This document shows positions 25,566 through 32,235 of a stretch of DNA of 64,000 nucleotides, piece after piece. Origin of the DNA: Eledone cirrhosa (Eukaryota); NCBI GenBank assembly GCA_964016885.1, contig CAXHJY010000624.1:4220-68219 (forward strand), given 5' to 3'. Below the pieces are notes generated by a model that made no database searches, was not told the DNA's origin, and was given only the letters and a program-made list of their open reading frames with translations. The translations under genes and the position numbers were made by a program. Position 1 is the first letter of the stretch. Every line of letters starts with the position of its first letter.

Positions 25566-25731
25566 ACAAGGCCAGCAATTAACCAGTGCATTACTGGTGC
25601 TTTATTTCATCGACCCCGTAAGGATGAAAGGTAAAGTTAACCTCGGCGGGATTTGAACTCAGATCATAAAGGGACGTAACTATGCTGGAAAGCATGGCGT
25701 CCGACCCTCTACCGATTCTGCCAATCCACCG
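25566..25731 (-). mobile_element. SINE family 1
   Basis: Reverse complement of the family 1 sequence. Confidence 0.85.
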
Positions 25732-26093: not shown

Positions 26094-26357
26094 GATTTGA
26101 ACTCAGACCGTAAAGGGACGTAACTACGCTGGAAAGCATGTCCGACCCTCTACCGATGCTGCCAATTCATAGCAGTAATAATTGTTTCTACTTTTGGCAC
26201 AAGGCCAGCAAAAACCCAGTGCATTACTGGTATTTTATTTTATCGACCCCGTAAGGATGAAAGGCAAAGTTAACCTTGACGGGATTTGAACTTAGATCGT
26301 AAAGGGACGTAACTACCATGGAAAGCATGTCCGACCCTCTACTGATACTGCCAATTC
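26094..26357 (-). mobile_element. SINE family 1: head fragment (26094-26166) plus full copy (26176-26357)
   Basis: Reverse complement of the family 1 sequence; head duplicated. Confidence 0.8.
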
Positions 26358-26607
26358 ATAGCAATAATAATGATAGACCCATGCGCTCCAACAAACATCT
26401 CGGCTCCCACCCCCTCGCGCTGGATTACTAACTCACCCACCTCCCTCTTCTGATTAACCCCTCTCCTTGTTTTCGTCCCCAACCTTCTAACCTCTTTTTT
26501 TCTAAGCTTTCCTCCTTTCCGATGAAAGCACTAACGTCCGATATGTTGAAATATTTTTTTCCATCAAGACTGTTATTGTATACCTGTGTGCCTCTTGATA
26601 TATATAA

Positions 26608-27045
26608 TAAACGTAATGAAGGAGTAACCATTCGTCCTTGTATTACTATATTATATTATATTATATTATATTATTAAAGTACCAGTAATGCACTGGGTAA
26701 TTGCTGGCCTTGTGCCTAAAGTAGAAACAATTATTATATTACACTCTAGGGCGGTGAATTGGCAGTATCGGTAGAGGGTTGGACGCCATGCTTTCTAGCA
26801 TAGTTACGTCCCGTTACGGTCTGAGTTCAAATCCCGCCGAGGTTCACTTAGCCTTTCATCCTTACACTGGTCGATAAAATAAAGTACCAGTAATGTACTG
26901 AGATAATTGCTGGCCTTGTGCCAAAAGTAGAAACACTTATCATATTACACACTGTCTAACTCTACACCGCGATACTGATGTGAACCTGAACATCGAGTGC
27001 TCGCCCGGGTGAACCTACAGTAACTCCACGTTACACTCCCTGGAT
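26608..27045. mobile_element. Family B PLE-like copy interrupted by SINE insertions
   Basis: 26608-26640 and 26950-27045 are together the reverse complement of about 748-895; the gap is filled by SINE sequence. Confidence 0.6.
26749..26940 (+). mobile_element. tRNA-derived SINE family 1, full length
   Basis: A-box TGGCAGTATCGG, B-box GAGTTCAAATCCC, body GCCTTTCATCCTTAC..GTCGATAAAATAAAGTACCAG, tail GTAGAAAC. An extra 3' fragment lies at 26674-26736. Confidence 0.85.
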
Positions 27046-27088
27046 GGATTGATATATATATATATATATATATGAAATGTATGGCCTT

Positions 27089-27169
27089 ACACACGCTGAT
27101 GAACCGAGACTAGACCATTTCTTTCAACAAATTTTTTGGTGAAACATATCTTTGGATTTGTACGTGTGT
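27089..27169 (+). ncRNA. Type I hammerhead ribozyme (PLE-associated)
   Basis: Stem I ACACACG/CGTGTGT; core CTGATGA 27096-27102; stem II ACCGAGA/TTTTGGT (with GU pairs); GAAA 27141-27144; stem III CATATC-TTTG-GATTTG (one mismatch); cleavage triplet GUA 27160-27162. Confidence 0.85.
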
Positions 27170-27579
27170 TATATAGTTATAAAGGTATTTATTTACGCTT
27201 TAATTTATATTTTTAATTATCGTGTCTATAGTCTGCCTTTCATAGGTTATAGATTCCATACACTGGTGGTTTTTTTCCCTGTATTATTGGTAACGCACTA
27301 TATATCTCTCTCTGGTGTGTTACCTTCTCAACATATTATATTTTAAAGGGCTCAGGATCTCTTCCCCTTTGAGCACATTATTTACAGGGAATAACGACGG
27401 CCTATGCCTCCGTTAATTTATCGTGATATATATATATATATATATTTATTGGTTCTTATATATTTGATATATATTTATCCTTATCGAGCCCTCTTTGGAT
27501 TTTAGTCTTCAAATTTATTATTATTATTACTATATATATTAACCCTTGTGGTTAATAAAGAAAACATTATTACTATATA

Positions 27580-27855
27580 TATAGGAACGAGTGGGACCCC
27601 GACGGCTGAGCTCAAGCCGTTTCGATGGCTAATTCTGGACTAAATGAAAATTTTTATCCTGGTATATTAATAGCCGAGCTTCTCATATATTCATATACCA
27701 CGATAAACATTTCATTTAGTCCAGAATTAGCCGTCGAAACGGCTTGAGCTCAGCCGTCGGGGTCCCACTCGTTCCTATTACCCACTCTACTACCCCAAGT
27801 ATTGAGTACTTTGGTGCGTTATGGTCCACCTGGTTCCTTACCACATTTCCTTCGT

Positions 27856-30190: not shown

Positions 30191-30372
30191 ATTGGCAGTA
30201 TCGGTAGAGGGTTGGACGCCATGCTTTCCAACATATTTACGTCCCTTTACGATCTGAGTTCAAATCCCGCCGAGGTTGACTTTGCCTTTCATCCTTACGG
30301 GGTCGATAAAATAAAGTACCAGTAATGCACTGGGTAATTGCTGGCCTTGTGCCTAAAGTAGAGACAATTATT
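30191..30372 (+). mobile_element. SINE family 1
   Basis: Same head, B-box and body. Confidence 0.85.
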
Positions 30373-30820: not shown

Positions 30821-31517
30821 GGCGGCGAATTGGCAGAGTTGTTAGAACGTCAGATAGAATGGCAGAGTGGTTAGAACGTCAGATAGAATGGCAGAATGGT
30901 TAGAACGTCAGATAGAATGGTAGAGTTGTTAGAACGTCAGATAGAATGGTAGAGTTGTTAGAACGTCAGATAGAATGGTAGAGTTGTTAGAACGTCAGAT
31001 AGAATGGCAGAGTTGTTAGAACGTCAGATAGAATGGCAGAGTTGTTAGAACGTCAGATAGAATGGCAGAGTTGTTAGAACGGCAGAGTGGCTAGAACGTC
31101 AGATAGAATGGCAGAGTGGTTAGAACGTCAGATAGAATGGCAGAGTTGTTAGAACGTCAGATAGAATGGCCGAGTGGTTAGAACGTCAGATAGAATGGCA
31201 GAGTGGTTAGAACGTCAGATAGAATGGCAGAGTGGTTAGAACGTCAGATAGAATGGCAGAGTGGTTAGAACGTCAGATAGAATGGCAGAGTGGTTAGAAC
31301 GTCAGATAGAATGGCAGAGTGGTTAGAACGTCAGATAGAATGGCAAAGTGGTTAGAACGTCAGATAGAATGGCAAAGTGGTTAGAACGTCAGATAGAATG
31401 GCAGAGTGGTTAGAACGTCAGATAGAATGGCAGAGTGGTTAGAACGTCAGATAGAATAGCAGAGTGGTTAGAACGTCAGATAGAATGGTAGAGTTGTTAG
31501 AACGTCAGATAGAATGC
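30821..31517 (+). repeat. 29-bp minisatellite derived from a SINE head (about 24 copies)
   Basis: Unit TGGCAGAGTGGTTAGAACGTCAGATAGAA, preceded by the SINE start GGCGGCGAAT. Confidence 0.9.
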
Positions 31518-31551: not shown

Positions 31552-32235
31552 CCAGAAATTACCCCGACATACATATTTCACCTAGAAATTATTCCGACAT
31601 AAGTCTTTTCTCCACAAAGTACCCCGATACACTTCTTTAAGTCTGAAATTACCCCGACATATGCCTTTCAATCAGAAAGTACCCGACATATGCCTTTCAA
31701 TCAGAAAGTACCCGACATATGCCTTTCAATCAGAAAGTACCCGACATACACCTCTCAATGAGAAAGTACCCGACATATGCCTTTCAATCAGAAAGTACCC
31801 GACATATGCCTTTCAATCAGAAAGTACCCGACATACACCTCTCAATGAGAAATTACCCCGACATATGCCTTTCAATCAGAAAGTACCCGACATACATCTC
31901 TCAATAAGAAAGTACCCGACATATGCCTTTCAATCAGAAAGTACCCGACATACACCTCTCAATAAGAAAGTACCCGACATATGCCTTTCAATCAGAAAGT
32001 ACCCGACATATGCCTTTCAATCAGAAAGTACCCGATATATGCCTTTAATCAGAAAGTACCCGACATACACCTCTCAATGAGAAAGTATCCGACATACACC
32101 TTTCAAGAAGAAAGAATCTCGACATGCGTGTTTCTATCATAAAGTCCCTCGACATACGTATTTCTGCCACACAAATTTCATCCAGAAAGTGACCCGATAT
32201 ACGTCATTCATCCAGAAAGTGACCCGATATACGTC
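31552..32235. repeat. 29-bp minisatellite AGAAAGTACCCGACATATGCCTTTCAATC with variant units
   Basis: About 15 well-conserved units (31660-32100) and decayed flanking units. Confidence 0.9.

What the first reader, a model, noticed from the sequence alone, without database searches (positions are those of the whole stretch)
27089..27169. Canonical, apparently intact type I hammerhead ribozyme with a real helix III
Seen: all conserved core nucleotides (CUGAUGA, GAAA, GUA), a perfect 7-bp stem I, a 7-bp stem II with a 24-nt loop and a 6-bp stem III with one mismatch. Established: most PLE hammerheads have only a vestigial stem III and are thought to cleave as dimers. Inference: this copy could self-cleave as a monomer after 27162 if transcribed.
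Basis: partly seen in the sequence, partly recalled or inferred. Interest (0 to 1): 0.75.

Follow-up and report, generated by a model that had tools for sequence, protein, structure and literature searches.

The report
Long-helix hammerhead in Penelope-pasted retrozyme
The flagged motif is a complete hammerhead self-cutting-RNA pattern inside one truncated copy of a 541-base protein-free repeat found over a thousand times in this animal genome, a known kind of genome parasite that is likely pasted by Penelope-type jumping genes, and its unusually long third stem means it is predicted, but not shown, to cut without a partner.

Summary
The hammerhead is real: all three stems and the core are as described, and 0 such motifs arose in 200 window shuffles. 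It is not a lone element. It sits in a 5'-truncated copy (27073-27426) of a 541-nt non-coding tandem unit; the genome holds 232 exact 27-mer matches and 1,130 family hammerheads. Copies lie mostly in (TA)n, with two fixed 3' ends 85 nt apart and head-to-head arms, like intact Penelope-type elements in the same genome. This fits a metazoan non-LTR retrozyme, a known class. Helix III (6-8 pairs, non-palindromic loop) is kept across subfamilies about 70% alike, with changed pairs, which is long for animal hammerheads. 'Canonical' is overstated: no G10.1-C11.1 pair, 24-nt loop II, no Rfam match, and the active fold is under 1% of the predicted ensemble. This copy has one ribozyme and cannot make a circle. 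Cleavage and expression are untested.

The parts
27073..27426 (+). 5'-truncated single copy (unit positions 189-541) of a 541-nt non-coding tandem repeat, non-LTR retrozyme type
   Evidence: 99.15% identical to a full unit in L018, 3 differences; unit length and ends
27089..27169 (+). Type I hammerhead ribozyme motif
   Evidence: sequence; descriptor 1 hit against 0 in 200 shuffles; family of 1,130 pattern matches
27089..27095 (+). Helix I 5' strand (pairs with 27163-27169)
   Evidence: mean pair probability 0.93
27096..27102 (+). Core CUGAUGA
   Evidence: 12 core positions 0.93 conserved against 0.84 outside the motif
27103..27140 (+). Helix II (7 pairs here; A10.1-U11.1, A-C mismatch in most older copies) with 24-nt loop
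   Evidence: predicted pair probability only 0.02
27141..27144 (+). Core GAAA
27144..27161 (+). Helix III, 6 pairs plus U-U mismatch, non-palindromic tetraloop
   Evidence: pairs change between subfamilies and are kept
27162..27163 (+). Predicted cleavage site, after the GUA triplet (unit position 278/279)
   Evidence: hammerhead consensus; not tested
27170..27185 (+). Conserved 12-nt 3' bulge (27170-27181) and predicted distal helix I (27085-27088 with 27182-27185); candidate tertiary partner of loop II
   Evidence: folds; conservation 0.91 over unit 281-300; no covarying loop-bulge pairing found by inspection
27341..27341 (+). Second fixed 3' end used by other copies (unit position 456), internal in this copy
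27342..27426 (+). 85-nt 'tail' between the two fixed 3' ends; this copy ends at unit position 541
27052..27072 (.). (TA)n target, 5' flank
27427..27445 (.). (TA)n target, 3' flank

Best explanation
The motif is the hammerhead of a 541-base protein-free repeat family (a non-LTR retrozyme), which likely cuts tandem transcripts into unit lengths as a single ribozyme, these would be closed into circles, and a Penelope-type reverse transcriptase and endonuclease likely copies them into TA microsatellites. Shown: the motif, the tandem unit, copy number, (TA)n flanks, two fixed 3' ends 85 nt apart, head-to-head arms, read-through across the cleavage site, intact RT+GIY-YIG elements with the same kind of ends. 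Inferred: transcription of arrays; cleavage after unit position 278 by a monomeric fold (helix III needs no partner); ligation by a host ligase (by analogy with PMC7229834); target-primed reverse transcription starting at AT-rich points 456 and 541 of the RNA, one for each side of the cut in (TA)n. The window's copy is a one-armed, 5'-truncated product with one ribozyme: if read through it could be cut once, but it cannot release a unit-length RNA.
For: Unit of 541 nt in head-to-tail arrays. 232 exact 27-mers, 961 and 1,130 pattern matches, controls 0; top 40 scored copies 98-100% identical, older subfamilies down to 69%. No PLE protein match joined to the unit in 95 loci; the nearby hits examined were separate insertions. 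In 83 loci picked by a 3'-end 20-mer, 35 of 51 two-armed insertions have one arm ending at 456 and one at 541, 2 have the same end twice, 14 have another end; 39 of 52 in an earlier, partly overlapping set, and 94 of 113 insertions have a TA-rich flank. An RT+GIY-YIG family with 67 of 69 scored matches stop-free and 98-100% identical also ends in (TA)n at two fixed points about 50 nt apart (8 and 8 of 16 rows), matching the PLE 'tail' and inverted-copy layout in PMC8557442 (passages). Arms cross the cleavage site without a scar: 7 of 68 arms stop in positions 275-295, and the neighbouring 20-nt bins hold the same number of 5' ends (6, 6, 6), so the template was continuous there. Helix III is kept in all three subfamily groups with G-U, A-U or U-U at 15.4 and U-A/C-G and C-G/U-A swaps at 15.6 and 15.7. 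Circular unit folds at -124.4 kcal/mol against -106.0 +/- 5.6 for 25 shuffles.
Against: No cleavage or RNA data. Nearest-neighbour folding puts the full hammerhead fold at 0.7% of the ensemble in this copy and at most 27% in any other copy tried, most near 0; helix II is weak and G10.1-C11.1 is replaced (A-C in 46 of 54 older variants). In bioRxiv 2026.07.22.740005 only 1 of 9 predicted retrozyme dimers cleaved in vitro. No sequence link ties the unit to a particular autonomous PLE. Continuity across the cleavage site fits an uncut linear multimer as well as a circle. The two double changes in helix III are adjacent, separate only two clades and may involve a one-base shift. 40 of the loci behind the pair counts were chosen with a pattern that fixed part of helix I and the first pairs of helix III. 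Core conservation exceeds background only modestly (1.8% of random 12-position sets reach it).
Confidence: 0.68

Rival explanations
1. Same parasite, but the ribozyme is slow or misfolded; it cuts rarely, only with a chaperone, or not at all, and new copies are made from uncut linear multimeric transcripts of existing arrays.
For: Hammerhead fold is a minor predicted state; A10.1-Y11.1 in place of G-C; an alternative pairing of the helix I/core junction with the 3' strand of helix II is the consensus fold; no pile-up of 5' ends at the cleavage site; 8 of 9 Xenopus retrozyme dimers did not cleave.
Against: Core and three helices are kept across subfamilies about 70% alike, which implies selection on the fold in the lineages that spread; folding models omit core and tertiary energy; arrays reach five units and 31 of 127 arms hold more than one unit.
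Confidence: 0.22
2. The 541-nt unit is the pseudo-LTR or 3' UTR of an autonomous Penelope-like element whose coding part I did not find, and the copies are its truncated ends.
For: PLE-type ends, tails and inversions; PLE terminal repeats carry type I hammerheads (PMC4209133); only 35 GIY-YIG loci of 150 listed (10,596 first-look candidates) were fetched.
Against: Going 5' from unit position 1, copies run into position 541 of another unit or into flank, never into an open frame, in the loci mapped; an alignment profile of the unit finds only one 65-nt fragment among the 35 PLE loci, and it sits in its own (TA)n run.
Confidence: 0.08
3. A host-serving, locus-specific ribozyme, or a chance match.
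For: None beyond the motif being intact.
Against: Three differences from a distant array copy, so intactness reflects youth; no host coding exon recognised near it in an open-frame scan; chance excluded by shuffles and controls.
Confidence: 0.02

Closest known systems
Metazoan non-LTR retrozymes (Acropora, Mytilus, axolotl; Cervera and de la Pena 2020, PMC7229834, parts 2-4 of 6 read; Li, Clavereau and Pollet, bioRxiv 10.64898/2026.07.22.740005, parts 1-3 of 5 read)
   Same: Non-coding tandem unit with one type I hammerhead per unit, GC under 50%, dispersed monomers and short arrays, co-occurrence with PLEs; like Mytilus, the archetypal loop 1-loop 2 nucleotides are not recognisable (by eye).
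   Different: Unit of 541 nt (170-400 nt in the 2020 paper, inside the 51-972 range of the preprint); helix III of 6-8 pairs against 1-2 in typical animal hammerheads; 24-nt or longer loop II; A10.1-Y11.1; two fixed 3' ends and head-to-head arms in (TA)n, which I did not see described for retrozymes in the parts read. Expression, cleavage and circles are untested here.
Large-helix-III type I hammerheads of fungal and protist PLEs (Cervera and de la Pena 2014, PMC4209133, passages)
   Same: Type I, large helix III, no recognisable tertiary contact; the Serpula example cleaves as a monomer (1.97 per min at 10 mM Mg2+).
   Different: Those lie in terminal repeats of coding, endonuclease-less PLEs of fungi and protists; this one lies in a non-coding animal repeat.
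Minimal dimer-type hammerheads of metazoan PLEs (PMC4209133, passages)
   Same: Type I; PLE-type insertion. One such motif with a palindromic four-base loop III sits in the 3' UTR of an intact PLE family of this genome.
   Different: Here helix III is long and its loop is not palindromic; no coding frame.
EN+ Penelope-like elements, Neptune-type insertion layout, and non-autonomous Chlamys/MRC1 (Craig et al. 2021, PMC8557442, passages)
   Same: Partial tandems, inverted 5'-truncated copy, one-sided tail, microsatellite targets.
   Different: No RT or GIY-YIG frame; tail is 85 nt against the 30-40 nt described; no shared 3' sequence with an autonomous family was found.

Membership tests
Type I hammerhead ribozyme | Core CUGANGA, GAAA and NUH triplet joined by three helices, helix I open | tested here: met
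Type I hammerhead ribozyme | Helices kept among homologs with changed pairs | tested here: met
   helix III 88% paired against 30-58% slid; helix II first four pairs 76% against 10-43%; double changes only in helix III, few independent events
Type I hammerhead ribozyme | Site-specific self-cleavage in Mg2+ | not testable with these tools
   needs an assay
Canonical metazoan type I hammerhead (PMC4209133) | G10.1-C11.1 closing pair | tested here: not met
   A-U in 14 of 15 young variants, A-C in 46 of 54 older ones
Canonical metazoan type I hammerhead (PMC4209133) | Helix III of 1-2 pairs with small palindromic loop (dimer type) | tested here: not met
   6-8 pairs, non-palindromic loop
Canonical metazoan type I hammerhead (PMC4209133) | Conserved loop 1-loop 2 tertiary nucleotides | tested here: inconclusive
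   a conserved 3' bulge exists, but no covarying contact was seen by inspection
Rfam hammerhead families | Score above gathering threshold | tested here: not met
   no match at gathering or E up to 10
Non-LTR retrozyme | Non-coding tandem units each with a type I hammerhead | tested here: met
   the window's copy itself is a truncated monomer
Non-LTR retrozyme | No LTR/PBS/PPT layout and no own RT | tested here: met
   unit-only structure in mapped loci, no joined PLE frame; PBS and PPT were not searched for separately
Non-LTR retrozyme | Expressed as unit-length linear and circular RNA | not testable with these tools
   needs RNA reads or blots
Non-LTR retrozyme | Co-occurring autonomous PLEs | tested here: met
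Penelope-like element (autonomous) | RT plus GIY-YIG open frame | tested here: not met
Penelope-like element (insertion layout) | Partial tandem, inverted 5'-truncated copy, one-sided tail, microsatellite target | tested here: met
Penelope-like element (partner) | Sequence homology of the unit to the terminal repeat of an autonomous family | tested here: inconclusive
   none with four families' 3' regions or 35 GIY-YIG loci; most PLE families not sampled

The most novel reading that the evidence does not exclude
A monomer-competent animal retrozyme whose hammerhead has traded the usual G10.1-C11.1 pair and dimer-type helix III for a long helix III plus a new tertiary contact between a 24-nt loop II and a conserved 3' bulge of helix I, and whose RNA circle is copied by two Penelope reverse transcriptases priming 85 nt apart, one on each side of a cut in (TA)n.
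Probability: 0.25. Interest if true: 0.6.

Novelty: new member of a known kind. Interest (0 to 1): 0.38.

Why it matters
It adds a young, abundant retrozyme family from an animal group for which my searches found no retrozyme paper, with a hammerhead shape that Rfam misses. Because subfamilies of different age differ at helix II and helix III, the family is a ready natural series for asking whether animal retrozymes need dimer or monomer cleavage. Its two fixed ends give a direct test of the proposed but unshown idea that Penelope enzymes copy retrozyme circles. The single window copy has no special importance.

Tried and rejected
Rfam: nothing in the window, the motif region or a unit dimer. 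Expression: no RNA holder listed; laying contigs of runs of unrecorded kind showed presence of the family only, no ends, no empty-site joint. RNAalifold on a MAFFT alignment of 12 motifs did not recover the hammerhead, partly because gaps fell out of register in helices I and III; I used core-anchored counting instead. Partner search: a 16-17-base AT-rich match to one PLE 3' UTR was reached by 31 of 300 shuffles and is not at that family's ends; the best-scoring match to another 3' UTR (8 of 1,500 shuffles) is TA/TG low-complexity sequence; PLE frames near L097, L103, L105 and L035 are separate insertions (L097 judged from coordinates only). A pile-up of 5' ends at the cleavage site, which would have marked cut linear templates, was not seen. 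No CUGANGA core on the minus strand of the unit. A loop II-bulge pseudoknot was looked for by eye: 3-5 possible pairs, in different places in different subfamilies, so not claimed. A Pol III A/B box was considered by eye and dropped (weak match, internal T runs). No paper was found holding A10.1 and C11.1 with hammerhead, so the cost of that pair to activity is left open.

Full report
Observation. A strict descriptor finds it once in the window and never in 200 shuffles. Rfam does not match it. The pair at 10.1-11.1 is A-U, where PMC4209133 calls G-C highly conserved (passages).

The host element. A 326-base query gave 48 matches from 40 scored candidates of 2,298, the top 40 at 98-100% identity. 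Several lie head to tail with a period of 541. The window holds unit positions 189-541 (27073-27426) between two (TA)n runs, with three differences from a unit in L018. Whole-genome counts: 232 exact matches to a 27-mer of the young subfamily, 961 and 1,130 matches to two family-wide hammerhead patterns, 1,870 to a 20-mer at the unit's 3' end; all four reversed controls gave 0. Older subfamilies align over the whole unit at 69-95%. The genome is 3.0 Gb; its SINE-like repeats look like those of an octopus (recalled, not tested), and earlier scan notes call it a cephalopod.

Is helix III real? I counted pairs outward from the core in 69 distinct variants from 115 copies (the 35 GIY-YIG loci were left out, and a copy had to keep the core to be counted). 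Helix III: 363 of 414 cells paired against 30-58% in slid registers. Position 15.4-16.4 is U-U in the young group (15 of 15), mostly G-U in the middle group (33 of 48) and A-U in the most distant group (5 of 6). Positions 15.6 and 15.7 switch from U-A and C-G to C-G and U-A in the distant group (5 of 6 each). These two double changes are adjacent, mark one split and may include a one-base shift, so they are support, not proof. Helix I is nearly invariant and says little; 40 loci were also picked by a pattern fixing part of it. In 36 copies from 43 loci found without that pattern, the 12 core positions are 0.93 conserved against 0.84 elsewhere, reached by 1.8% of random sets. Position 10.1-11.1 is A-C in 46 of 54 older variants and A-U in the young group, so the young subfamily has a stronger helix II and a weaker helix III than its elders. 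Loop III is not palindromic in this copy. PMC4209133 gives 1-2 pairs and a palindromic loop as usual for animals, and large helix III for fungal and protist PLEs, one of which cleaves as a monomer.

Would it fold? Not certainly. The 81-nt motif folds no better than shuffles. With flanks, the hammerhead fold is -18.4 kcal/mol against a minimum of -19.4, with ensemble share 0.7%; helix I has probability 0.93, helix III 0.13, helix II 0.02. Copies from 21 other loci range from 0 to 27%, most near 0. These models omit core and tertiary energy, so they do not exclude activity, but they do not support 'canonical and ready to cut'. In the retrozyme preprint only 1 of 9 predicted dimers cleaved. A conserved 12-nt bulge on the 3' side of helix I (27170-27181) and the large loop II are candidates for a tertiary contact; pseudoknots are common in hammerheads (PMC3088659, passages), but I found no consistent pairing.

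How copies were inserted. Ends are not at the cleavage site. They fall at unit positions 541 and 456, each followed in the unit by a short AT-rich run and in the genome mostly by (TA)n. In 83 loci taken in order from the first 100 listed hits of the 3'-end 20-mer, 35 of 51 two-armed insertions pair a 456 end with a 541 end, 2 have 541 twice and 14 have another end. An earlier set of 106 loci, sharing 12 with this one, gave 39 of 52, and 94 of 113 insertions had a TA-rich flank. This is the PLE layout of partial tandem, inverted truncated copy and one-sided tail (PMC8557442, passages). The genome has intact RT+GIY-YIG elements: one family has 67 of 69 scored matches without stops at 98-100% identity, a minimal hammerhead with a palindromic loop in its 3' UTR, and two fixed ends about 50 nt apart in (TA)n (8 and 8 of 16 rows); another ends at one seen point in (TA)n in 5 of 5 loci and showed no hammerhead to my descriptor. 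A CxxxxCxxC linker before the nuclease suggests the Neptune clade (motif seen; clade name, no tree built). 5' ends are spread along the unit with no spike at the cleavage site (7 of 68 arms stop at 275-295, one a likely TA artefact), so templates were continuous there: a religated circle or an uncut multimer.

Mechanism. Most likely (0.68): arrays are transcribed, each hammerhead cuts on its own, unit RNAs are circularised by a host ligase as shown in vitro for axolotl and mussel retrozymes (PMC7229834), and a PLE protein cuts (TA)n and primes reverse transcription at the two AT-rich points, giving one arm or two opposed arms of variable length. All RNA steps are inferred. The window's copy has one ribozyme and lacks positions 1-188, so it is probably a dead end. 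Main rival (0.22): the ribozyme is slow and uncut multimers serve as template.

What is known. Non-LTR retrozymes and their proposed link to PLEs are in print. Searches for hammerhead ribozyme with octopus and Penelope, with cephalopod, and octopus with retrozyme returned no paper describing such a family in cephalopods, judged from listings; supplements were not seen. The scan's own notes describe two-armed, PLE-type retrozyme arrays of 310-311 and 422 nt in this genome; I had seen both ends and the inverted arms, and the notes led me to count them.

Verdict. Observation confirmed, interpretation partly supported. A new member of a known kind with a mildly unusual ribozyme shape. Interest 0.38.

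Noticed in passing
window 61427-64000 (-): Open frame of 858 aa or more with AP-endonuclease and RT domains (Pfam PF14529, PF00078), a LINE-type element running off the window.
   Followed up: partly
window 27581-27778: Head-to-head inverted repeat (90% self-match) of another dispersed non-coding repeat beside a TA run; pieces recur in L003, L008, L017.
   Followed up: no
window 27431-27539: Short AT-rich repeat right after the 3' (TA)n run that also matches L002 and L023, a separate small insertion in the same microsatellite.
   Followed up: no
window about 25575-25730, 26100-26360, 26675-26940, 30195-30370: Several copies of a SINE-like repeat; resembles octopus SINEs (recalled, not tested).
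   Followed up: no
L054, L063, L065, L103, L151-L162: Young intact PLE family (open frames mostly 775 aa) with a minimal hammerhead in its 3' UTR: palindromic four-base loop III, U-U at 10.1-11.1, two fixed 3' ends about 50 nt apart.
   Followed up: partly
L051, L052, L056-L058: Second young RT+GIY-YIG family ending in (TA)n, with a 3' UTR over 1 kb in which my descriptor found no hammerhead.
   Followed up: partly
window about 30830-31500 and 31580-32000: Two minisatellite arrays with units of roughly 23 and 29-30 bases.
   Followed up: no
window about 50000-54000: About 4 kb with essentially no G or C, a very long A/T-only simple repeat.
   Followed up: no
unit positions 361-420 and 481-508 across L163-L233: 5' ends of arms cluster here, about 40-100 nt upstream of the two fixed 3' ends; may be early truncation or pausing at predicted hairpins.
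   Followed up: no
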